From IMG/VR virus record IMGVR_UViG_3300014204_000107, positions 107,468-171,467 of that record: a stretch of DNA of 64,000 nt; one strand, written 5' to 3'. The translations under genes were made by a program, and so were the position numbers. A model generated the notes under the pieces. That model worked only from the letters and a program-made list of their open reading frames with translations, made no database searches and was not told the DNA's origin. Within the stretch, counting starts at the first letter, position 1. Each line of letters starts with the position of its first letter. This document shows positions 15,801-44,511 of the stretch, piece by piece. Source of the DNA: a virus (lineage: Duplodnaviria; Heunggongvirae; Uroviricota; Caudoviricetes).

Positions 15801-16844
15801 ATGAGAAATTTAGCAACTATACAACGAATTATAGATATCAAACCTATTCCAAATGCTGATGCTATTGAAGTAGCTCAAATACTTGGGTGGCACGTGGTTA
15901 TTAAACGCAATGAATTTAAAGTCAACGACTTATGTGTCTATGTAGAAATTGATTCATTGCTGCCGCATTGGCCGGAATTTGAATTTCTTGCTTCTTCAAA
16001 TTATAGAATTCGAACAGTAAGGCTGCGTGGCCAGGTGAGCCAAGGTATTTGTTTTCCGCTATCAATATTAGAAGGAAAGAAATTTAAAGATGATACACGC
16101 GAAAATCCTAAATATGAATTATATGAAGGGTATGATGTTACTGGTTTGCTACAAATAGAAAAATACGAACCAGCAATACCTGCTTGTTTAAGTGGACTTG
16201 CTATTGGATATTTTCCGTCTTTCATTCCAACTACTGATGAAACTCGCATTCAAAGCATGCCTGAAATATTAACTAAATATAAATGGCAACGGTTCTATGT
16301 TACGGAAAAATGTGACGGTAGCTCATGTACAATCTTTATTAAAGATAATAATTTTGGTGTGTGTTCTAGCGGATTACAATTAGCTGAAGATGATAAAAAT
16401 TCATTTTGGAAAGTAGTAAAGCAAAATAATATTGAGGAAAAAATTCGTTCTTTGGATATGAATATTGCATTGCAAGGAGAATTAGTTGGGGAAGGAATAC
16501 GGGGCAATAAATTAGGTATTAAGGGGCATGATATTTATTTCTTTACTGCATTCGACATTGATGAATATAAATTTATGGACGGCCCCGATTTATTATCTAT
16601 GTTAATGACATTAGGACTTAAAATGGTTCCTATTATAGATGCAAACTATAAATTACCATTAACAGTTGATGAATTAGTAGCATTCGTACAGCGCAAATCA
16701 GAAATTAATCCTAATGTTTGGATTGAAGGTGGCGTATTTCGTCCTCATATTGAGATAATTGATACTGAAATTAAATTATTACATGCAAATAGATTGTCGT
16801 TCAAATGTATAAATCCAAATTTCTTGCTTAAATACAACGAATAA
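15801..16844 (+). CDS. ATP-dependent RNA ligase (DRB0094/Rnl5-like with N-terminal OB fold)
   Basis: [18 protein letters not shown], motif [35 protein letters not shown]. Confidence 0.9.
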
Positions 16845-26955: not shown

Positions 26956-28269
26956 ATGCTCCAAGATTTCGGAACTTTAAAACAAATGGTTGATGAACTC
27001 AATGCTGATAATTCGTCAACAGCAAAATTAATGGTGCTTAAACGGTACAAGAAAAACGAATTTATTCGTGAAGTATTGCATTATACTTATACCACATTTA
27101 AACAGTATTATGTAACTCCAGATAATCTTAGAAAAAACGAAGATTTGGTTGAATACGGTTACACAAACTTGTTTAAATTGCTTGATGACTTAGCAGCAAG
27201 AAAGATATCCGGCCATGATGCGTTAGCAAATGTTAATGGATTCATTGAAAAGAATAAGAAATACGCTGAATTAATATTGAATATTTTTGAGCGTAACTTG
27301 AAAGTGCGGTTAGATTCAAAAAGTATAAATAAAGTCTTTAAAGACTGCATTCCAACATTTGATGTGGCACTTGCAAACAAATATGAAGGCAAAGTTATTG
27401 CCAAGGTTAATTTTAAAAAAGATACATATTTTGTCAGTCGTAAATTAGACGGCTGTAGATGCATTGTTTTTTGTAATGGTGATGATGTAAAACTTATTAG
27501 TCGCCAAGGTAAAGAGTTTAAAACGCTTGATGTATTGAAAGAAGAATTTAGAAAGCTTAAAGTGTTTGGGTTAGTATTTGATGGCGAAGTTTGTATAGTG
27601 GATGATAACGGCAATGAGCATTTTGATCAAGTTCAAAGGCAAATATTACGCAAAAATTATACAATTGAAAAACCAAAATATAATGCATTTGATTGTTTAA
27701 CACAAGAAGAATTCGATGCTCAAACGTCAAAACGCATTTTAAGTGAAAGATTAAAACAGCTTAACTATATTATACGTTCAGCAGTTAAATCACATACTAT
27801 TAGTCGCAAGCGAATTGAAGTTCTCGAGCAAACTGTTGTTAAAAGCAATGCTGATTTAGAAGAATATTCAAACTATGCAACACAGCATGGTTGGGAAGGA
27901 TTGATCATTCGTAAAGATTGTGAATATAAAGGCAAACGCAGTGATGACATGCTTAAATTAAAAAAGTTTCACGACGACGAATATACGGTGAAAGACATTG
28001 AAACTGGTCCGTTTAGAGTAGTTGTGGATAATGTAGAAGTAGTTGAACAGACATTGACAAATGTAATCATAGAGCACAAAGGAAATCCTGTAAGCGTTGG
28101 TAGTGGATTTTCACTTGAAGAACGGCGTGCATTTTACAATAATCCTAAAGAAATTATTGGTAAGGTAATCACTGTGAAATATTTTGAGACGTGTAAAGAT
28201 AAAAATGGAAAAGAATCATTGAGATTTCCTACATTGAAAGCAATTCATGGACGAATTAGACAGACGTAG
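26956..28269 (+). CDS. lig: ATP-dependent DNA ligase
   Basis: SRKLDGCR, FDGEV, GWEGLIIR, MLKLK, VGSGFS, LRFP. Confidence 0.95.
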   Translation: MLQDFGTLKQMVDELNADNSSTAKLMVLKRYKKNEFIREVLHYTYTTFKQYYVTPDNLRKNEDLVEYGYTNLFKLLDDLAARKISGHDALANVNGFIEKNKKYAELILNIFERNLKVRLDSKSINKVFKDCIPTFDVALANKYEGKVIAKVNFKKDTYFVSRKLDGCRCIVFCNGDDVKLISRQGKEFKTLDVLKEEFRKLKVFGLVFDGEVCIVDDNGNEHFDQVQRQILRKNYTIEKPKYNAFDCLTQEEFDAQTSKRILSERLKQLNYIIRSAVKSHTISRKRIEVLEQTVVKSNADLEEYSNYATQHGWEGLIIRKDCEYKGKRSDDMLKLKKFHDDEYTVKDIETGPFRVVVDNVEVVEQTLTNVIIEHKGNPVSVGSGFSLEERRAFYNNPKEIIGKVITVKYFETCKDKNGKESLRFPTLKAIHGRIRQT

Positions 28270-37368: not shown

Positions 37369-37710
37369 GATAAATATGAATGAATTTTATTATTCAAATA
37401 TGTTTGATACTAAAGCAATTGAGTATGTTATTATAATTATATTTTTATTATTGTTAATACCCTTTTCAACTTATCTTAATAAACCTAGAAAAAAACATAA
37501 TTAATATGCTATTAAAGCATTAATATCATTTAGATTTGGATAATAGAAAATTTTTACTTACATTTACAACAGATTTTTAGATAAACAACAAAAATAAACG
37601 ATTTATTGCTTAAAAAGCACAAACAAAAAAAATGTTAAAAAAAGTTTGGAAATTATCATTTTTTTTCATACTTTTACATAGTTATTACAAACCAACAAAA
37701 TAAAATTGAA

Positions 37711-37876
37711 ATGAGAACAGTGAATACATATAATACCAAGAACATTTGCGCCAGCATTAATTATGATGCATGGACAGGTAAAGGAGTACGTTTGAAAACA
37801 AGCTAGGTATTTAGTATTCCCATTATCATAAAAATATAAATTATGAAGAAACCTAGCCCAACCAGCTAGGTTTTTT
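37711..37876 (+). promoter_or_regulatory. leader-peptide attenuator of the + strand tRNA array
   Basis: 31-aa leader 37711-37806 ending AGC TAG; gctaggt (37802-37808) can pair with acctagc of terminator aaacctagc-ccaacca-gctaggttt-ttt (37849-37876). Confidence 0.7.
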
Positions 37877-37908
37877 CGTTTCGGTTCTTTCTAATATTGT
37901 AATTAAAT

Positions 37909-37979
37909 GCCTCTGTAGCTTAACGGTGAAGCAATTGGCATAATTTGGGTAGGTAGCTTAATTGGCAAAGCGCAGATAT
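37909..37979 (+). pseudogene. two tandem tRNA 5'-half remnants
   Basis: gcctctg-ta-gctt-aacggtg-aagc and gggtagg-ta-gctt-aattggca-aagc; no anticodon or T arms. Confidence 0.6.
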
Positions 37980-38050
37980 TGGTCTATGGTGAAAAGGTAT
38001 CACGGGAAACTGTTAATTTTCGATTCTTGGTTCGATCCCAAGTAGGCCAG
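37980..38050 (+). tRNA. tRNA-Asn(GTT)
   Basis: acceptor tggtcta/taggcca, loop ctGTTaa, T loop ttcgatc. Confidence 0.85.
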
Positions 38051-38121
38051 CTAAAAAATAATTTTTAAGACCGCTATAATTTTCAGCTTTATACTATTTA
38101 TAATAAAACAGGAGAATTATT

Positions 38122-38787
38122 ATGTCGTATGTATGTAAAAAATGTGGAAAAATATTTGAAAAACAAAGAGCACTAATGGGTCATTGTGTAACTCATTCAA
38201 TTAAAGTACAAGTCAAAAAAATAAAAACACAAGAAAAAAATAAAATTAAATCAAATAAAAAGCATATATGCAAATACTGTAATTTAGAATTTGAAACGGG
38301 GCCATCATTAGGAACACATACAAGAAATTGTATAAGTAATCCTAAAAGAGAAGATATGATAAAGCGGGGACACATTAATCGTTCAATATCAACAAATAAT
38401 GATGAATATCGGGCTAAATTAAGTGCAGCCGTTACTGCTGGTATAATGAAAAGAGTTAAAGCTGGTACTTGGCATACAAGCTTTAAAAAAACAAGAACAT
38501 ATGATTATAAAGGTGAAAGACTTCATGGTAAATGGGAATTGGAATATGCAAAATGGTTAGATAACAATAATATAAAATGGAAACGACCAAAAGATAGATT
38601 TCATTATATATTTGAAGAAAAAGATCATTATTATACACCAGATTTTTATTTAGTTGATACTAATGAATACGTTGAAATAAAGGGATATGAAACAGATAAA
38701 GATAGAGCCAAATGGAAATATTTTAAATTAAAATTAATAATACTAAAAGGTAAAGATTTGCGAGCCATGGGAATTAATGTTTGGTAA
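38122..38787 (+). CDS. C2H2 zinc-finger PD-(D/E)xK endonuclease
   Basis: CKKC..H..H, CKYC..H..C, YTPDFYL...VEIKGY. Confidence 0.8.
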   Translation: MSYVCKKCGKIFEKQRALMGHCVTHSIKVQVKKIKTQEKNKIKSNKKHICKYCNLEFETGPSLGTHTRNCISNPKREDMIKRGHINRSISTNNDEYRAKLSAAVTAGIMKRVKAGTWHTSFKKTRTYDYKGERLHGKWELEYAKWLDNNNIKWKRPKDRFHYIFEEKDHYYTPDFYLVDTNEYVEIKGYETDKDRAKWKYFKLKLIILKGKDLRAMGINVW

Positions 38788-38844
38788 TATTTAAATCCGG
38801 CCTTGCCCCAATAAATTGTTCTTTAAAATATTTTTTAATAAATT

Positions 38845-38912
38845 GCCGGTGATCCAGGGAGAAGACAGGTCTGTAAAACCTCAGCTAGAAGGCTCGCGTC
38901 CTTCCACCGGCA
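38845..38912 (+). tRNA. atypical short tRNA-like gene, anticodon GTA
   Basis: gccggtg/caccggc, aggt-ctGTAaa-acct, no long variable arm, T loop ctcgcgt. Confidence 0.55.
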
Positions 38913-38933
38913 CAATTAGTTCTTTAAAATAAT

Positions 38934-39028
38934 GCCGCAAGTAACATCAGTGGACTGTACACCCATTCTGCGTAACAAATAGATGTAAGGTACTTCGCAG
39001 TAAATAGGTTCGAATCCTATCAGCGGCA
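38934..39028 (+). ncRNA. tRNA-like RNA whose anticodon arm is replaced by an insert containing GGTACTTCG (degenerate Y-RNA-like)
   Basis: gccgc/gcggc ends, intact T arm atagg-ttcgaat-cctat, no recognisable anticodon loop. Confidence 0.4.
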
Positions 39029-39037
39029 CAAAATATC

Positions 39038-39107
39038 GATCCGGACGTATAACGGTTGTATACCGCGTTGTCTGCGCGAGAGGAGGGGTTCGAATCCCAC
39101 CGGGTCG
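39038..39107 (+). tRNA. tRNA-Asp(GTC), degenerate
   Basis: gatccgg/ccgggtc, cgcg-ttGTCtg-cgcg, weak T stem. Confidence 0.55.
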
Positions 39108-39112
39108 GCGAT

Positions 39113-39258
39113 AATTGATAGTGACTAAAAGAGTTACTTCGTATTCCAAACGAGAAATGCAGTGTTCGAATCCTGCCGGCCGTGCTAATAATTTAATACC
39201 ATACGGCTGTGGTCTAATGGCAAGACGCTAAAAATACTCTTTTAAATTTTCTTCAATT
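39113..39258 (+). ncRNA. YrlA-like Y RNA
   Basis: terminal stem aattga/tcaatt and taaaagagt/actctttta with TTACTTCG; inside, T arm, then acceptor-like stem closed by a loop (cggccgt/acggctg), then D arm. Confidence 0.7.
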
Positions 39259-39264
39259 ATACTT

Positions 39265-39338
39265 ATTCTCGTATATCAATTGGTGAGATTATCTGCCTGA
39301 TAAGCAGAAGGTTATGGGTTCAAATCCCGTCGAGAATA
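39265..39338 (+). tRNA. tRNA-Ile(GAT)
   Basis: attctcg/cgagaat, tctgc-ctGATaa-gcaga. Confidence 0.9.
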
Positions 39339-39340
39339 CA

Positions 39341-39448
39341 AAGTTGTGGCAACAGTAAAAGCTACTTCGTGCGAATAGTTCGCAATTTGTCTTCTAAACA
39401 AACCATCCGGTGCAATCCCGGCTGTTCTCTTACAAACTTTCCCAACTT
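39341..39448 (+). ncRNA. second Y-RNA-like gene (reduced)
   Basis: aagttg/caactt ends, GCTACTTCG motif, internal anticodon-like (cttctaa) and T-like arms. Confidence 0.5.
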
Positions 39449-39452
39449 AAAT

Positions 39453-39527
39453 GGTCTATTTGGCCTCATGGTGAGGAACCAGACTGTCACTCTGGTAAAA
39501 TCTACGGATCAAAACCGTGATAGATCG
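39453..39527 (+). tRNA. tRNA-Asp(GTC)
   Basis: ggtctat/atagatc, ccaga-ctGTCac-tctgg. Confidence 0.75.
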
Positions 39528-39536
39528 CAAATAAAT

Positions 39537-39609
39537 GGGTTGCCATGTTCCAAGGCTGGCGAAGGACGCCTGCAACGTCTTTGGTGGGGTTCGATTCCCC
39601 AGCGATCCA
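39537..39609 (+). tRNA. tRNA-Ala(TGC)-like (alternative register GCA/Cys)
   Basis: gggttgc/gcgatcc with G3:U70 and A73; loop cctgcaa. Confidence 0.55.
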
Positions 39610-39621
39610 CGCATAAAATAT

Positions 39622-39719
39622 GCAACTGGTCCAATCAAAGGGATTGCAGATTTCAATAAAATCTATAACAGGATCATGTTAAAGCTAAACATGATTGGGT
39701 TCGAATCCCGCCCGTTGCT
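39622..39719 (+). tRNA. tRNA-Sec/allo-tRNA-like gene with TCA in a distorted anticodon loop
   Basis: 8-bp acceptor gcaactgg/cccgttgc, long D stem caatc/gattg, 9-bp extra arm gatcatgtt/aacatgatt, agat-ttcaataaa-atct. Confidence 0.45.
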
Positions 39720-39762
39720 CAATTTAATGGTTCATTGACATCTTGGATAATTTTGTAATATT

Positions 39763-39833
39763 GTCCGCAAGCCTGATGATGAGGGATTCTGTCTGCAAAA
39801 CAGAAGATGTTGGCTTAAACCCAACTGCGGACT
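39763..39833 (+). tRNA. tRNA-Cys(GCA)
   Basis: gtccgca/tgcggac, U73, ctGCAaa. Confidence 0.8.
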
Positions 39834-40076
39834 CTTTGAAATATTGCAAGGGCAGCCATATGTGGTGTATGGTGTTAAACATTTCTAACCCTTGCAATCT
39901 TATTAATAATGCATGAATAACTAACAATTATTCTCAGCATTACTGCAAAGACAAGTAATTGCCTTTGCAACGAATTCGACGGTGGATCGTACGTCCAAAA
40001 TGCGTAAGCATTAATTGTAGGTGAAGCCGTCCCATCAGGATGTTTCGTACGTTCATCTCGGGAAAAACGTACACAC

Positions 40077-40150
40077 GCGGGATTCGCATAGTTGATTAGT
40101 GCGTCTGACTTCCAATCAGAATTTCGCGGGTTTGAGTCCCGCATCCCGCA
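40077..40150 (+). tRNA. tRNA-Gly(TCC)
   Basis: tctga-ctTCCaa-tcaga. Confidence 0.85.
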
Positions 40151-40154
40151 CAAT

Positions 40155-40227
40155 GCCTTTGAAACATTTAATGGATGATGCCCCGCCTTGTAAGCGGGAG
40201 AATGCGGCTCGATTCCGCACGAAGGCT
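40155..40227 (+). tRNA. tRNA-Thr(TGT)
   Basis: ccgc-ctTGTaa-gcgg. Confidence 0.85.
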
Positions 40228-40238
40228 CAATAATATAT

Positions 40239-40309
40239 GCACTATTCGTATAACGGTAGTATGCTGCGTTGCCAGCGCAGAGATGTCAATTCAACTTTGA
40301 TATAGTGCT
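40239..40309 (+). tRNA. tRNA-Gly(GCC)
   Basis: ctgcg-ttGCCag-cgcag, U73. Confidence 0.85.
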
Positions 40310-40316
40310 CAAATAT

Positions 40317-40389
40317 AGTAACATAGCTCAATTGGTGGAGCGTTTGCCTGATACGCAAAAGGATGTGTGTTCGATTCACATTGTCACTA
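40317..40389 (+). tRNA. tRNA-Ile(GAT)
   Basis: ttgc-ctGATac-gcaa. Confidence 0.8.
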
Positions 40390-40400
40390 CAAAATAAACT

Positions 40401-40474
40401 GCTCCTATGGTGTAATTTGGAAGCATTTTTGCCTTACATGCAAACGGCTATTGGTTCGAATCCAATTGGGAGCA
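40401..40474 (+). tRNA. tRNA-Val(TAC)
   Basis: tttgc-ctTACat-gcaaa. Confidence 0.9.
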
Positions 40475-40479
40475 CAAAT

Positions 40480-40566
40480 GTAGTCGTGGCCGAAATAGGA
40501 TTGAGGCTCCAGCCTTTTAAGCTGGGATCCGTAAGGTGTATGTGGGTTCGAGCCCCACCGACTACA
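40480..40566 (+). tRNA. tRNA with Lys(TTT) anticodon and Leu-like long variable arm
   Basis: ccagc-ctTTTaa-gctgg; 3-bp D stem, ~16-nt extra arm, A73. Confidence 0.75.
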
Positions 40567-40572
40567 CAATTT

Positions 40573-40645
40573 GCCGAGGTGGTACAAAAGATTAAAACGC
40601 ATCGTTGGTATCGATGAGATTCCGGTTTGACTCCGGACCACGGCT
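40573..40645 (+). tRNA. tRNA-Thr(GGT)
   Basis: catcg-ttGGTat-cgatg. Confidence 0.8.
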
Positions 40646-40650
40646 CAAAT

Positions 40651-40723
40651 GACTCGCTAACTCAATTGGTAGAGTACCACCCTTTTAAGGTGGGAGTTCC
40701 GGAATCATGCTCCGGGCGGGTCA
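40651..40723 (+). tRNA. tRNA-Lys(TTT)
   Basis: ccacc-ctTTTaa-ggtgg. Confidence 0.85.
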
Positions 40724-40734
40724 CAAAGTAACAT

Positions 40735-40820
40735 GCATTCGTATCCGTAGCGGCGAACGGTTCAGACTCTTAATCTGATGATGTAACAATCCACCGTGGG
40801 TTCGATTCCCACCGAATGCA
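40735..40820 (+). tRNA. tRNA with Lys(CTT) anticodon and long variable arm
   Basis: tcaga-ctCTTaa-tctga; ~17-nt extra region, A73. Confidence 0.75.
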
Positions 40821-40832
40821 CAATAAAAATAA

Positions 40833-40905
40833 ATGGGAGAGAAGTTTAAAAACAAAACTTTCTTACTTTTCTCAATTAAATGTAGCGATTAGAGAGTTAC
40901 TTCGG
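40833..40905 (+). ncRNA. degenerate Y-RNA-like remnant (3' motif then 5' motif)
   Basis: ttacttttctcaatt followed by aatgtagcgattagagagttacttcg. Confidence 0.45.
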
Positions 40906-41012
40906 TAAAACAACAATCTGTAAAATTGTACATTGTATTTAAACTTTATGTTTAATATTTTATTAATTATTTTTTATTATTGAACTATATATTATAAACA
41001 AGGAGATTTATA

Positions 41013-41777
41013 ATGTATTATTTGGTATATAAAATAACAAACAAATTAAATAATAAAATCTATATTGGTTGCCACATAACTGAAAAATTTAATGACAAAT
41101 ATATGGGTAGTGGTAGATTAATTAGAAAAGCAATTAAAAAGTATGGGTTAGAAAATTTTACTAAAGCAGTCTTATATAATTTTGATAACCAACTTGATAT
41201 GTTGAAGAAAGAAGCGGAGTTGGTTAATAAAGAGTTTATTAAACGCAAAGACACATATAATATTACCGAAGGTGGTACGTTTAATACTAAAGGAATTGCA
41301 GTAGTTAAAGATGCTAATGGTAATGTATTATTTGTTCCTGCAAAAGATAAAAGAATTAAAGATAGAATATTGGTTGGAATGACAACGGGACTTGTTCCTG
41401 TTAAAGATATCAATGGCAATATATTTAGCATTGGCACGAATGATCCAAAATACTTGTCAGGAGAATTTGTTCATATATCTAAAGGTCTTGTTACAGCAAA
41501 AGATAAAGATAGCAATTATTATAATGTTTCAATTGATGATGAAAGAATTAAGTCCGGTGAATTAGTTGGTACAATGAAAGGATTAAAACACACGGATGAA
41601 GCAAAAAAGAAAATTGGAATGGCTAACAAAATACATCAAATGGGCAGTGGGAATAATCAATATGGAACTTGTTGGATTTATAATGTTAAGCTAAAAGAAA
41701 ATAAGAAAATAAAAACTGAAGATCTTGCGTCTTATTTAATAGACGGGTGGATTAAAGGTAGAAAAATGAAATTTTAA
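41013..41777 (+). CDS. Seg-like GIY-YIG homing endonuclease (copy 1)
   Basis: YLVYKITN..NNKIYIG.H...YMGSG; repeated VKDxxGNxFxVxxxDxRxxSGELV units. Confidence 0.85.
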   Translation: MYYLVYKITNKLNNKIYIGCHITEKFNDKYMGSGRLIRKAIKKYGLENFTKAVLYNFDNQLDMLKKEAELVNKEFIKRKDTYNITEGGTFNTKGIAVVKDANGNVLFVPAKDKRIKDRILVGMTTGLVPVKDINGNIFSIGTNDPKYLSGEFVHISKGLVTAKDKDSNYYNVSIDDERIKSGELVGTMKGLKHTDEAKKKIGMANKIHQMGSGNNQYGTCWIYNVKLKENKKIKTEDLASYLIDGWIKGRKMKF

Positions 41778-41782
41778 TATAC

Positions 41783-41877
41783 GGGGAATAAGCATTCGGT
41801 GCTATTACTTTCCTAATTTTCTCAGTTAATGTAGTGACTGGAGAGTTACTTCGGAGGTTCAATCCCTCTGTTCCCCT
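41783..41877 (+). ncRNA. circularly permuted Y RNA (tRNA-order) candidate
   Basis: acceptor ggggaat/gttcccc, D arm gcat/gtgc, T arm ggagg-ttcaatc-cctct; anticodon arm replaced by Y-stem 3' strand plus 5' strand (actttcc/ggagagt, TTACTTCG). Confidence 0.65.
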
Positions 41878-41882
41878 CAAAT

Positions 41883-41954
41883 GCGTCTGTAGTGTAATGC
41901 GTAGCACAAGGGCTTCCAAACCCCTTCGTAAGAGTTCGAATCTTTTCAGGCGCG
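41883..41954 (+). tRNA. tRNA-Trp(CCA)
   Basis: loop ttCCAaa, G73. Confidence 0.8.
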
Positions 41955-42186
41955 CAAGGCAATATCATAGCAAGAATGTATTTTATTATTAGCATTTTTG
42001 TTAGGATATAATATGATGTATGAGATTTCATACATTAAGTCGAAATTAGGGATGTAATGTATGATATTTCATACAAATCTATTAGGTTTGATTTGCTCGA
42101 CTTTTATATTAGGATGATGTAGGATATTACCCAATATAAAACGTCTAACCTAACTTACCTAATCGATGCAGAATTGAAAATACTAT

Positions 42187-42258
42187 GCCGGTATATTTTA
42201 ACAGGTAGAATAAATCACTCGTAATGATTAGATACGGACTCAGCTTCTGTTGCCGGCT
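42187..42258 (+). tRNA. tRNA-Thr(CGT)
   Basis: aatca-ctCGTaa-tgatt; atypical T loop ctcagct. Confidence 0.7.
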
Positions 42259-42269
42259 CAACAAAATTT

Positions 42270-42341
42270 GCTCCTATGGTGTAATGGATAGCATTAGAAT
42301 CCCCTAAATTTTAAGTATAGGTTCGAGCCCTATTAGGAGTG
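42270..42341 (+). tRNA. tRNA-Arg(CCT)
   Basis: agaat-ccCCTaa-atttt. Confidence 0.75.
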
Positions 42342-42450
42342 CAAACATAATTAAATTTATAAAAAAGCAATTATAGCATTTAAGAAAAATTTTTGTTTTT
42401 TTATTTTTTTTCTTATATTTATTGAAAACCAAGGAAAGTACAAAAACATT

Positions 42451-42753
42451 ATGGTTGGTGACATTTACAAGTTGTCGGGTGCTAATAGCAATATTTCGCA
42501 AAAAATAGGAGCCATAGGTATCGTTGTGCAAGAGTTAGCCGATTTATACTTTCTTTGCGGCCAATCTAAACTTGTTCTATTTGCTAATGGAGACTATGAA
42601 GAATTTAATACACATGAGCAAGAATATTTCCTTAATAAAGTTGGCCATTCATCGGAACATGAGCATTATAAATTTACCAATGCTATGCAACTAAATAAAG
42701 ACTACGAGCATGGGTTATGGTACAATGTATTCATAAGAAATTCTACTAAATAA
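42451..42753 (+). CDS. hypothetical protein
   Basis: 100-aa ORF with its own promoter-like box. Confidence 0.65.
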   Translation: MVGDIYKLSGANSNISQKIGAIGIVVQELADLYFLCGQSKLVLFANGDYEEFNTHEQEYFLNKVGHSSEHEHYKFTNAMQLNKDYEHGLWYNVFIRNSTK

Positions 42754-42756
42754 TAT

Positions 42757-42829
42757 GCCACCTTCGTATAACGGATAGTACAACGTGCTTCTACCGCGTT
42801 CGGTGTGGGTTCGAATCCCATGGGTGGTA
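42757..42829 (+). tRNA. tRNA-Arg(TCT)
   Basis: aacgtg-ctTCTac-cgcgtt. Confidence 0.85.
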
Positions 42830-42855
42830 CAATAAACAACAATTTAAAATTAAAA

Positions 42856-43377
42856 ATGGGCAAAACCAATTACAGAATTAACCAAGAAATAAAAGACGAT
42901 AAAGTTAAAGTTATATTTGATAGCGGAGACCAAAAAATTCTTCAAACTTATATAGCTATTAATATAGCAAATAAAGAAGGATTAGATTTAGTTGAAGTAG
43001 GGAAGAATGGCGAATTTCCAATATGTAAAATTCTTGATTACAGGAAGTTTATATATGACCGTGAAAAAAAGGAAAAAGAAAACAAGAAAAAGCAAGTAAA
43101 AATTGAAACAAAGGAAATAAGATTTACTCCTAATACGGGTAAGCATGATTTAGAATTTAAAAAACAACATATAATTGCCTTTTTAAAGGGTGGCAATAAA
43201 GTAAAAATATCAGTTTTCTTCAAAGGGCGTGAAAAAGAAAAGCCAGAACGGGGAGAACTTATATTATACCAACTAATGCAAGAACTAATTGAAGTTAGTA
43301 AAGTTGAAAAATTGCCGAAATTAGAAGGCAATTATCTGTCAACAACACTAACTCCAAAAACAAATGGAAAAATTTAA
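42856..43377 (+). CDS. infC: translation initiation factor IF-3
   Basis: RINQEI, GLDLVEV..PICKILDY.KF.Y, KEIRFTPN.G.HD...K, G.KVKISVFFKGRE. Confidence 0.95.
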   Translation: MGKTNYRINQEIKDDKVKVIFDSGDQKILQTYIAINIANKEGLDLVEVGKNGEFPICKILDYRKFIYDREKKEKENKKKQVKIETKEIRFTPNTGKHDLEFKKQHIIAFLKGGNKVKISVFFKGREKEKPERGELILYQLMQELIEVSKVEKLPKLEGNYLSTTLTPKTNGKI

Positions 43378-43843
43378 AGCATACAATACAGGAATACTTG
43401 AAGGTGGAACAATTGAATACATCAAGAACTACCTTGAAACGCATGACAATGTTACTGTTTATGTTGGAACCGACTCGGTTAACAACAAAACAAGAACAGT
43501 ATTTGCGTCTGTTATCCTTATGTACCGCAAAGGAAAGGGTGGACATTACATCTATGATGTGAAGTTCATGCCAAAAATTCGCGATATGCATTTAAGACTT
43601 TCTAAAGAAATTGAATATTCTCGCACAATTGCAAAGGAATTGCAAGATGCTGGTTTAACTGTTGCTATTGACTTAGATATCAACCCAAGTGATAACCATG
43701 CATCACACGCATTAAAGTACTGGATTGGTAGTTTAATATATGAAGGATTTGATGTTCGCATTAAACCGGTATCTTGGGCTGCTAGCCGAGCTGCAGACTT
43801 TGTACTTGGCAAATATAAGAAAAGAAAGGAAAAGAAGAAATAA
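43364..43843 (+). CDS. RNase H-like YkuK (DUF458) family protein
   Basis: VYVGTDS, RL..E..YS, DLDINP, KP.SWAAS.AAD. Confidence 0.85.
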   Translation: MEKFKAYNTGILEGGTIEYIKNYLETHDNVTVYVGTDSVNNKTRTVFASVILMYRKGKGGHYIYDVKFMPKIRDMHLRLSKEIEYSRTIAKELQDAGLTVAIDLDINPSDNHASHALKYWIGSLIYEGFDVRIKPVSWAASRAADFVLGKYKKRKEKKK

Positions 43844-43925
43844 CACTATTAAGTTTATGCTATACAGGTATCGAAAGAAAATTCCACGTTGTGCATAATG
43901 GTGCAAGTAGCATAAACTTTTTTAC

Positions 43926-44303
43926 GGGCCATACAGGCTTTGATTGCAATGACGATGAAATGTAAGCAAGCATCACCTTATCTAATATGTGATTCATAAA
44001 TTATTAGGTAAACAACTAAACGGCAACGCACAAATAAATGCAGAGGATATAATGTCATATCCTACTATTGTAACAGTTACTAAACCTGTTGCAAGGGTTG
44101 AGCACTTCGAAGAAGTGCTAGCATAAACAGCAAAATTAGTAAGCACGTTTTCTTGCGTGTAAAACACAGGATACAGTTTTTTCTGCTTGTTCTCGAAATA
44201 ATAATAAAAGCAGATATTTTGTTCGCTAAGAAAAACGAAATAAGCTTGTAGAAAATATTTATAAACATTGTAAGACTCGAGTTCGAATCTCGAATGGTCC
44301 ACC
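43926..44303 (+). ncRNA. ssrA: tmRNA
   Basis: acceptor gggccat/atggtcc with G3:U70 and A73, T arm ctcgag-ttcgaat-ctcga, P2 ttgcaatg/cattgtaa, pk1-like atcac/gtgat plus ctaata/tattag, tag frame 44022-44126. Confidence 0.9.
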
Positions 44304-44350
44304 GTGTTGGGTAGAAGACACCAACTAATGTGCCACACACGATGAGAAAT

Positions 44351-44511
44351 GGGCTGTTCACCCATAGTGGAACGTAGAAAGTATAGGGAAAACTTTCGGG
44401 AGTGCCTACCTTCTCTGCGCAGGGAGAACAAGTTTAATTCTAACCAAACCAATGTGCGGCCGTGCATTGGAAGTAGCAAATTGGAAACCTCATATGCTTT
44501 TGGGACAGCCT
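44351..44511 (+). ncRNA. unassigned ~160-nt structured RNA candidate
   Basis: ggctgttc/ggacagcc closing stem; hairpins at 44411-44428 and 44449-44470. Confidence 0.45.

What the first reader, a model, noticed from the sequence alone, without database searches (positions are those of the whole stretch)
41783..41877. Circularly permuted Y RNA in true tRNA order
Seen: an open acceptor stem (ggggaat/gttcccc), a D arm and a perfect T arm, but in place of the anticodon arm lie the 3' strand and then the 5' strand of the same stem motif (...actttcctaattttctcag / aatgtagtgactggagagTTACTTCG) that caps the element at 39113-39258. Established: bacterial YrlA RNAs have a Ro60/Rsr-binding terminal stem and a tRNA-mimic module ordered T arm, loop-closed acceptor-like stem, D arm. 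Inference: this is a permuted YrlA with free tRNA-like ends that RNase P and the CCA enzyme could process, giving a possibly chargeable tRNA-Y RNA chimera. It could have arisen from a tandem Y RNA pair that lost its outer halves.
Basis: partly seen in the sequence, partly recalled or inferred. Interest (0 to 1): 0.8.

Follow-up and report, generated by a model that had tools for sequence, protein, structure and literature searches.

The report
tRNA-shaped Y RNA in phage
A 299-kb phage carries, inside its tRNA gene cluster, a 95-base RNA gene with the ends and elbow of a tRNA, in which the anticodon arm is replaced by the hairpin that this phage's Ro60-type protein most likely binds; known bacterial Y RNAs (YrlA) have the same parts joined in the opposite order.

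Summary
Window 41783-41877 has a 7-bp open acceptor stem, a short D arm and a canonical T arm. In place of an anticodon arm it has a capped hairpin carrying both strands of the motif that closes the element at 39113-39258.

The Y-RNA reading is supported:
- The phage encodes a Ro60/TROVE protein outside the window, preceded by four tandem RNAs with the same bulged-helix motif.
- In IMG/VR, 27 of 48 motif-bearing records encode TROVE, against 0 of 46 control records (p = 8e-11).
- A covariance model built only from other phages finds exactly this hairpin and its sister at 40854-40904 in the window.
- About 15 tRNA-order chimeras occur beside TROVE genes in crAss-like and other phages, including cultured PhiCrAssBcn4.

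This copy is the shortest, and the only one I found with this connector that lacks an anticodon-like arm.

Not shown: expression, Ro60 binding, CCA addition or charging. I found no paper describing this layout. Earlier notes of this scan report the same layout on other DNA.

Verdict: a new topological variant of a known kind (Y RNA / YrlA).

The parts
41783..41789 (+). acceptor stem, 5' strand (GGGGAAU)
   Evidence: Pairs with 41870-41876 over 7 bp. This stem varies with compensatory changes across 14 tRNA-order chimeras, although complementarity was a selection criterion in my scan.
41792..41802 (+). short D arm (GCA-UUCGG-UGC) with GG in the loop
   Evidence: It is non-canonical: A at position 8 and a 3-4 bp stem.
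41807..41813 (+). Y-hairpin stem 2, 3'-type strand (ACUUUCC)
   Evidence: Pairs with 41840-41846. The stem covaries in the family.
41814..41822 (+). 3'-type half of the bulged-helix motif (UAAUUUUCU)
   Evidence: UUCU pairs with A, G, G and A of UAGUGAC, leaving U41835 bulged. It is conserved in all seven copies in this genome.
41823..41831 (+). cap of the hairpin (CA-GUUAA-UG), standing in for terminal stem 1 of open-form Y RNAs
41832..41839 (+). 5'-type half of the motif (UAGUGACU), the presumed Ro60 contact; compare GNCGAA of bacterial Y RNAs
   Evidence: Identical to 39119-39126. The published motif is in PMC4201824.
41840..41846 (+). Y-hairpin stem 2, 5'-type strand (GGAGAGU)
41847..41852 (+). 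conserved connector UACUUC(R), in the variable-loop position
   Evidence: Invariant in alignments A1 and A2. It is present in all copies, including those without any tRNA part.
41853..41869 (+). T arm (GGAGG-UUCAAUC-CCUCU)
41870..41877 (+). acceptor stem, 3' strand (GUUCCCC), plus discriminator U; no encoded CCA
   Evidence: tRNA-Trp starts 5 nt further on, at 41883.
39113..39258 (+). sister element in YrlA order: open Y stem, Gly-UCC-like anticodon hairpin, T arm, loop-closed acceptor, canonical D arm
40836..40950 (+). sister element with a capped Y hairpin (40854-40904), outer stem AAGUUUAAA/UUUAAACUU and a Tyr-like loop hairpin (ACAAU-CUGUAAA-AUUGU)

Best explanation
The element is a phage Y-type RNA built in tRNA order.

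Step 1 (inferred): It is transcribed with the tRNA array.

Step 2 (inferred): Its ends are made like those of a tRNA. RNase P would cut before G41783, the 3' end would be trimmed after U41877, and CCA would be added, since none is encoded.

Step 3 (shown at sequence level only): The acceptor/T minihelix and the D/T elbow give it a tRNA-like body.

Step 4 (inferred from the motif and its co-occurrence with TROVE genes): The capped hairpin in the anticodon-arm position presents the bulged helix 5'-UAG(U)GA-3' / 5'-UUCU-3' and the connector UACUUC to the phage's own Ro60 (TROVE + vWA) protein.

Step 5 (inferred by analogy): As with other Y RNAs, it would either gate Ro60 or tether it to a factor that recognises tRNA shape. 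The difference from YrlA is that it has a free acceptor end.
For: - The tRNA frame and hairpin are present, and the sequence folds better than shuffles.
- The same motif occurs seven times in the genome: four times in tandem directly upstream of a 482-aa TROVE + vWA_Ro60 ORF and three times in the tRNA array.
- The Ro60 ORF matches Pfam TROVE at 3e-19. Its best PDB match is 9L5Y/9KOP, phage phiRo60, at 1.5e-21.
- The structure of the module is supported by covariation:
  - In A1, 93% of cells are paired, against 34-56% when the partners are slid.
  - In A3, 23 distinct foreign sequences give 92.8% paired and a covariation score of 0.43, against 0.13 or less in controls.
- A model built only from other genomes (R2) hits 41804-41853 and 40854-40904 at 37.5 bits, E about 1e-5, and nothing else in the window.
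- 27 of 48 motif-bearing viral records encode TROVE, against 0 of 46 records found with the reversed pattern; Fisher p = 8e-11.
- In crAss-like phages, tRNA-order chimeras sit in Y-RNA arrays right after the TROVE gene, where ARAGORN calls no tRNA. This includes cultured PhiCrAssBcn4, where the region is unannotated.
- RNAalifold on 14 chimeras recovers the acceptor stem, Y stem and T arm, with compensatory changes at 20 of 24 pairs, and the window element fits all of them.
- The motif resembles the published Rsr site GNCGAAN0-1G and the CGAA motif (PMC4201824, PMC12135203).
- The phage has a CCA-adding-family gene.
Against: - There is no evidence here for transcription, end formation or Ro60 binding.
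- The MFE fold of this copy prefers a register-shifted hairpin by about 10 kcal/mol, and that fold would not present the bulged helix.
- The D region is non-canonical: A8 and a short stem.
- I found no orthologue with sequence differences, so this copy's own conservation is untested. The only other holder, a groundwater metagenome, is identical.
- It lies 78 kb from the Ro60 gene.
- The match to the published Ro60-binding motif is partial (RGYRAY against GNCGAA).
- R1 and R2 scores depend largely on sequence. A junction of two tandem open-form units scores as high as the true hairpins.
Confidence: 0.72

Rival explanations
1. It is a decaying remnant: a tRNA-order chimera that lost its anticodon-like arm, perhaps through rearrangement next to the mobile Seg-like endonuclease gene that ends 5 nt upstream. 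It would no longer have a function.
For: - It is the only chimera without an anticodon-like arm among about 15.
- The D arm is degenerate.
- It is directly adjacent to a homing endonuclease ORF at 41013-41777.
- A clearly degenerate look-alike lies at 38932-39030.
- There are no variant orthologues to show purifying selection.
Against: - The acceptor stem (7 bp) and the T arm are perfect, and both motif halves match the family consensus exactly.
- Stem 2 differs from the sister copy by compensatory changes, not random ones.
- Classic YrlA also lacks an anticodon loop (10.1101/312249), so the missing arm is normal for a Y RNA.
Confidence: 0.12
2. It is a tRNA-like RNA with a long hairpin that works without Ro60. 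It might fold as the register-shifted MFE hairpin and bind another factor, or act only as a processing signal that ends the endonuclease mRNA and releases tRNA-Trp.
For: - The MFE fold differs from the family fold.
- There is no terminator between the endonuclease ORF and tRNA-Trp.
- tRNA-like structures are known RNase P-dependent 3'-end makers, as cited in 10.1101/312249.
Against: - This does not explain why both motif halves and the connector are kept identical to the RNAs beside the Ro60 gene.
- It does not explain the motif's association with TROVE genes.
- The shifted pairing arises because UUUCU resembles ACUCU. It is not the fold supported by covariation.
Confidence: 0.1
3. It is a tRNA gene interrupted by an intron-like insertion, or a permuted or split tRNA gene, that is spliced to give a decoding tRNA.
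For: - In relatives the hairpin sits at tRNA position 26/27 of frames with intact anticodon loops: Lys UUU and Asn GUU.
- The phage has an Rnl2-family RNA ligase.
- Permuted tRNA genes exist in algae and archaea, as cited in 10.1101/312249.
Against: - Removing the hairpin from this element leaves no anticodon arm at all.
- The motif is not a bulge-helix-bulge.
- Many relatives have degenerate D arms or anticodon-like loops that are not 7 nt or lack U33.
- Copies without any tRNA part exist beside the Ro60 gene.
- RtcB is absent.
Confidence: 0.03

Closest known systems
YrlA (Y RNA-like A; Rfam RF02553; Chen et al. 2014 PMC4201824; structure in Wang et al. 2018, 10.1101/312249)
   Same: It is encoded in a genome with Ro60. 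It has a tRNA-like T arm, D arm and acceptor-like helix. The Ro60-binding stem takes the place of the anticodon stem, and there is no anticodon loop.
   Different: The order is circularly permuted. Here the acceptor is open, with free 5' and 3' ends, and the Y stem is a capped hairpin; in YrlA the Y stem is open and the acceptor is closed by a loop. RF02553 gives no hit. The motif is RGYRAY plus the connector UACUUCR, not GNCGAAN0-1G. The gene lies in a tRNA array 78 kb from the Ro60 gene.
Yrl1/Yrl2 with phiRo60 of Thermus phage phiLo (Hu et al. 2025, PMC12135203; PDB 9KOP, 9L5Y)
   Same: The closest solved relative of this phage's Ro60 (E = 1.5e-21). The Y-like RNAs are phage-encoded and carry a CGAA-type motif in a stem-bulge-stem.
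   Different: Yrl1 and Yrl2 are open-ended stems beside the gene. No tRNA frame is reported for them.
tRNA-order Y chimeras of crAss-like phages (unannotated; for example PhiCrAssBcn4 OQ221539.1, downstream of the TROVE CDS)
   Same: The same hairpin module, connector, open acceptor stem and T arm.
   Different: They are 122-143 nt long and keep an anticodon-like arm after the connector. They lie next to the TROVE gene. I found no publication on them.
Canonical tRNA, and tRNA mimics with free CCA ends (tmRNA, viral tRNA-like structures)
   Same: A 7-bp acceptor stem with a discriminator base, a canonical T loop, a position inside a tRNA array, and no encoded CCA, like its neighbours.
   Different: There is no anticodon arm. 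Neither ARAGORN nor the Rfam tRNA model calls it. Position 8 is A.

Membership tests
Y RNA (Ro60-associated ncRNA) | The genome encodes a Ro60/TROVE protein | tested here: met
   A 482-aa ORF at genome 70137-71585 matches Pfam TROVE at 3e-19, with weaker vWA_Ro60 and VWA_2 matches just below Pfam's cut-offs, and PDB 9L5Y at 1.5e-21.
Y RNA (Ro60-associated ncRNA) | Carries the conserved bulged-helix motif shared with the RNAs encoded beside the Ro60 gene | tested here: met
   The same U-R-G-Y-R-A-Y / WUUUCY helix and UACUUCR connector are found in the four RNAs upstream of the TROVE ORF. The foreign-only model R2 hits at E about 1e-5. Motif-TROVE association: p = 8e-11.
Y RNA (Ro60-associated ncRNA) | Matches the published Ro60/Rsr-binding sequence (GNCGAAN0-1G; GGUCCGA in vertebrates) | tested here: inconclusive
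   UAGUGAC aligns as R-G-Y(bulged)-R-A but differs at the last position. The comparison was by eye against PMC4201824.
Y RNA (Ro60-associated ncRNA) | The Ro60-binding stem is formed by the RNA's own 5' and 3' ends | tested here: not met
   Here the two strands are joined by a 9-nt cap (41823-41831), and the RNA's ends form the acceptor stem instead.
Y RNA (Ro60-associated ncRNA) | Physically bound by Ro60 | not testable with these tools
   No RNA-protein tool is available, and no RNA runs hold this phage.
YrlA (RF02553) | Scores at or above the Rfam gathering threshold | tested here: not met
   There is no hit at E <= 10 in 37500-44500. The best hit in the genome is 28 bits, elsewhere, against a gathering score of 69. 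The model also misses the YrlA-ordered sister, so this failure says little.
YrlA (RF02553) | Order: T arm, loop-closed acceptor-like stem, D arm, inside an open Y stem | tested here: not met
   The order here is acceptor 5' strand, D arm, capped Y hairpin, T arm, acceptor 3' strand.
YrlA (RF02553) | tRNA-like elbow (T loop plus D loop GG), with the Y stem in the anticodon-stem position and no anticodon loop | tested here: met
   The T loop is UUCAAUC, the D loop is UUCGG, and the hairpin lies between the D and T arms. The comparison is with 10.1101/312249.
tRNA | Cloverleaf with an anticodon arm, recognised by tRNA detectors | tested here: not met
   ARAGORN and Rfam RF00005 do not call it, even at E <= 10. 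No anticodon arm can be drawn.
tRNA gene with an intron, or a permuted tRNA gene | Removing the insert, or re-joining the parts, yields a complete tRNA | tested here: not met
   Removing 41807-41846 leaves the D arm joined to the T arm, with no anticodon arm.

The most novel reading that the evidence does not exclude
Phage Y RNAs in tRNA order would be matured like tRNAs and carry a free CCA end that can be extended, or even aminoacylated. Ro60 would then be tethered to the tRNA or translation machinery, or to tRNA-targeting host defence nucleases. In that case this minimal copy, which lacks an anticodon arm, offers only the acceptor/elbow half. The sister copies instead display Lys-, Asn-, Tyr-, Glu-, Thr- and Gly-type anticodon loops as baits. 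The phage's Rnl2 ligase and CCA enzyme would complete a tRNA-protection or tRNA-repair system.
Probability: 0.15. Interest if true: 0.85.

Novelty: new variant of a known kind. Interest (0 to 1): 0.62.

Why it matters
YrlA-type Y RNAs were defined as tRNA mimics that lack a free CCA end. That seemed to rule out the things real tRNAs do with their ends. Natural Y RNAs in true tRNA order, with an open acceptor stem, remove that limit. They make it possible to ask whether Ro60 particles are coupled to RNase P, the CCA enzyme, synthetases or EF-Tu.

The family is common in phages that encode Ro60, including cultured crAss-like phages of gut Bacteroides, where the region is unannotated and the TROVE gene is an early gene (PMC8375218). 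Experiments are therefore feasible.

The family also shows that current detectors (Rfam YrlA, ARAGORN) miss a whole layer of small RNAs in phage tRNA arrays.

Tried and rejected
- **Rfam at the gathering threshold and at E <= 10, and RF02553 on the whole genome.** No Y RNA or YrlA hit at any of the seven copies. This was rejected as a test, because the YrlA-ordered sister is missed too. None of the 14 control genomes reached the cut-off either.
- **blastn of the array against 50,697 phage records.** Only the Seg-like endonuclease ORF matched. No close relative of the array was found.
- **My first validity filter for motif hits.** It was too strict and not informative, so I replaced it.
- **Raw counts of motif hits in IMG/VR.** They are not above chance: the reversed pattern gives at least 119 hits, against 105 for the real motif. 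Only the association with TROVE carries weight.
- **Scan for a second tRNA-order element with the T arm directly after the connector.** None found. Nearly all 55 loci are YrlA-order units.
- **Public sequencing runs.** No RNA holder is listed.
- **Contigs laid on the array.** Contigs from a groundwater study are identical to the window over 41662-41820 and 41837-42383. They give no variants and no information on RNA ends.
- **Promoter and terminator scan.** Nothing above the shuffled background.
- **RtcB.** Absent from the genome.
- **R1 hit in jumbo phage G028.** It proved to be a junction of two tandem open-form units, not a true hairpin form.

Full report
**1. What is there**

The window is part of a complete 299,351-bp phage genome with direct terminal repeats (window = genome 107468-171467). 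Its GC content is 32%. It holds two converging tRNA arrays and a tmRNA.

The element at 41783-41877 is not called by ARAGORN, nor by Rfam's tRNA model even at E <= 10. Read directly, it consists of:

| Part | Sequence | Coordinates |
|---|---|---|
| Acceptor, 5' strand | GGGGAAU | 41783-41789 |
| Positions 8-9 | AA | 41790-41791 |
| D arm | GCA-UUCGG-UGC | 41792-41802 |
| Linker | UAUU | 41803-41806 |
| Hairpin | ACUUUCC-UAAUUUUCU-CAGUUAAUG-UAGUGACU-GGAGAGU | 41807-41846 |
| Connector | UACUUC | 41847-41852 |
| T arm | GGAGG-UUCAAUC-CCUCU | 41853-41869 |
| Acceptor, 3' strand | GUUCCCC | 41870-41876 |
| Discriminator | U | 41877 |

No CCA is encoded. tRNA-Trp starts 5 nt later, and a Seg-like GIY-YIG endonuclease ORF ends 5 nt upstream. 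The 95-mer folds better than shuffled sequence (z = -3.3).

The element at 39113-39258 has the same two strands as an open terminal stem. That stem encloses a Gly-UCC-like hairpin, a T arm, a loop-closed acceptor and a canonical D arm.

**2. The shared module**

A relaxed search finds seven clear copies in the genome. Four are tandem, open-ended units directly upstream of a 482-aa ORF at genome 70137-71585. Three are in the tRNA array, at window 39119, 40883 and 41832.

The ORF is a Ro60 homologue:
- Pfam TROVE at 3e-19, plus weaker vWA_Ro60 and VWA_2 matches just below Pfam's cut-offs.
- Best solved relative: phiRo60 of Thermus phage phiLo, E = 1.5e-21.
- D. radiodurans Rsr, E = 1.7e-6.

All copies share four features:
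- a variable stem 1;
- a helix in which 5'-R-G-(Y)-R-A pairs with 5'-U-U-C-Y, leaving one pyrimidine bulged;
- a 7-9 bp stem 2;
- the connector (W)UACUUCR.

The pair next to the bulge covaries: A-U in five copies and G-C in two. Stem 2 differs between copies by compensatory changes.

On ten hairpin-form modules, 93% of cells are paired, against 34-56% when partners are slid. On 23 distinct sequences from other phages the figures are 92.8% paired and a covariation score of 0.43, against 0.13 or less. That alignment was fitted to the model, which favours the structure.

The motif resembles the bacterial Rsr site GNCGAAN0-1G and vertebrate GGUCCGA, which lie on the 5' strand that Ro60 mainly contacts (PMC4201824). 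It also resembles the CGAA motif of phiLo Yrl1/Yrl2 (PMC12135203).

**3. Link to Ro60 beyond this genome**

- The pattern TAGYGAY-N5-9-GAGTTACTTC hits 105 IMG/VR stretches.
- The same pattern read backwards hits at least 119, so the raw counts mean nothing.
- However, 27 of 48 searchable records with the real motif encode a TROVE protein. None of 46 control records of comparable contig length, chosen by eye, does. Fisher's exact test gives p = 8e-11.
- Model R1 finds hairpin-form modules in 21 of 27 TROVE-positive records, and in 9 of 9 complete ones.
- Model R2 was built only from foreign sequences. It finds exactly 41804-41853 and 40854-40904 in the 64-kb window, at 37.5 bits and E about 1e-5.
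- One caveat: a junction between two tandem open-form units scores equally well. These scores therefore reflect sequence more than pairing.

**4. The tRNA-order layout recurs**

In roughly 100-kb phages the hairpin modules lie within about 1 kb of the TROVE gene, on the same strand.

In G025, a complete 104,772-bp genome, the TROVE stop codon is followed by five Y-type RNAs. Three are open-form and two have a full tRNA frame (GGGGAUA...UAUCCCC-A and GGGGGUG...CACCCCC-A). In the two framed RNAs the hairpin is inserted after the D arm. ARAGORN calls no tRNA there.

A scripted scan gave about 15 distinct chimeras of this kind, 122-143 nt long. RNAalifold on 14 of them, including the window element, predicts the acceptor stem, Y stem 2, part of the motif helix and the T arm. 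Compensatory changes occur at 20 of 24 pairs. Acceptor complementarity was a criterion of my scan, so that stem's covariation is partly built in.

These phages are crAss-like. The cultured Bacteroides phage PhiCrAssBcn4 (Kehishuvirus) has an annotated TROVE CDS followed by about 880 unannotated bases. That stretch holds open-form units and two tRNA-order chimeras.

Both permutations exist for the same kind of chimera. L047 is in tRNA order, while L074 is in Y order with a closed acceptor; both carry a Lys-UUU loop.

The window element differs from all of these in one respect: the T arm follows the connector directly, so there is no anticodon-like arm. A dedicated scan found no second case with this connector. 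This makes it the exact un-permuted counterpart of YrlA, which also lacks an anticodon loop (10.1101/312249).

**5. How it most likely works**

- Shown: the sequence architecture, family membership of the hairpin, co-occurrence with Ro60 genes, and the presence in this phage of a CCA-adding-family gene and an Rnl2-family RNA ligase.
- Inferred: co-transcription with the array, RNase P and 3' processing, CCA addition, Ro60 binding at the bulged helix, and a tethering or gating role as in other Y RNAs.
- Charging is possible in principle, because the acceptor end is free. There is no evidence for it.

**6. Uncertainties**

- The MFE fold of this copy is a register-shifted hairpin at -31.2 kcal/mol, against -21.6 for the family fold. 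The shift arises because UUUCU resembles ACUCU. Both folds keep the tRNA frame.
- The D region is degenerate.
- No diverged orthologue is available. The only other holder, a groundwater metagenome from another study, is identical.
- No RNA data exist for this phage.

**7. Rivals**

- The intron or permuted-gene reading fails, because excising the hairpin leaves no anticodon arm. Copies with no tRNA part also exist.
- A decaying remnant cannot be excluded. It fits poorly with the perfect stems and the exact consensus motif.
- A role independent of Ro60 does not explain the association with TROVE genes.

**8. Literature and earlier notes**

I found no paper describing Y RNAs in tRNA order.

- Chen 2014 and Wang 2018 describe YrlA as like a circularly permuted tRNA with a closed acceptor. 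They note that M. smegmatis YrlA can be cut by RNase P and then receive CCA.
- Work on crAss001 mentions only a TROVE early gene as a possible ribonucleoprotein component (PMC8375218 and PMC10136315).
- Iyer et al. list TROVE among the RNA-repair genes of jumbo phages (PMC7824862).

Earlier notes of this scan report the same layout on other DNA, in cyanobacteria, crAss-like phages and giant phages. They also report the four Y RNAs beside this phage's Ro60 gene. I reached the same reading independently and re-tested part of it.

**9. Verdict**

This is a real feature. It is best read as a Ro60-partner Y RNA wired in tRNA order, which is a new variant of a known kind. Function and expression are untested.

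Noticed in passing
window 39113-39258: A YrlA-order Y RNA that also carries an intact-looking anticodon arm (UUCGU-AUUCCAA-ACGAG, Gly UCC) before the T arm. In effect it is a circularly permuted tRNA-Gly-like body inside an open Y stem.
   Followed up: partly
window 40836-40950; genome 69927-70000 (unit YC, outside the window); L026, L047b, L311: Several Y units carry a hairpin with the loop CUGUAAA or a near variant (a Tyr-GUA-type anticodon loop). Across the family, the anticodon-like loops are of Lys UUU, Asn GUU, Tyr GUA, Glu UUC, Thr UGU and Gly UCC types. Several of these are classic targets of anticodon nucleases. This may be chance.
   Followed up: partly
window 40480-40567 and 40735-40821; also L116:1728-1997: 'tRNA-Lys' genes of 84-88 nt with a long variable arm and a Leu/Ser-type D region: class II bodies with UUU or CUU anticodons. 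They recur in another TROVE-positive phage (G035).
   Followed up: no
window 38932-39030 and 39341-39450: Two weaker members of the same family. The first has an outer stem UGCCGC/GCGGCA, a GUACUUCG connector and a T arm, with no anticodon arm. The second is an open-form unit with UGGCAAC...CUACUUCG. Neither folds better than shuffled sequence (z about -0.8).
   Followed up: partly
window 41013-41777: A Seg-like GIY-YIG homing endonuclease ORF (254 aa) is inserted in the tRNA array, ending 5 nt before the element. It is the only part of the array with matches in cultured T4-like and Vibrio phages.
   Followed up: partly
window 16290-16763 and 27424-27717: An Rnl2-family RNA ligase domain (PF09414, 2.7e-21) in a 353-aa frame, and a second, weak match (1.8e-4) in a 456-aa frame.
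   Followed up: no
outside the window: genome 178837-179058 and 180166-180288: The CCA-adding / poly(A) polymerase family domain (PF01743) is split between a 119-aa frame and a 340-aa frame about 1.1 kb apart. This suggests an intron, an intein or a mobile insertion in the gene.
   Followed up: no
L262, L273, L300 (viral contigs): In tandem arrays of YrlA-order units, the D arm and Y 3' strand of one unit abut the Y 5' strand and T arm of the next. Read in a shifted frame, or cut in the acceptor loops, such arrays would yield tRNA-order molecules. This is a plausible route to the permutation.
   Followed up: no
window 43926-44304: A phage-encoded tmRNA (Rfam 70 bits), with a tag peptide ending in ...EEVLA.
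   Followed up: no
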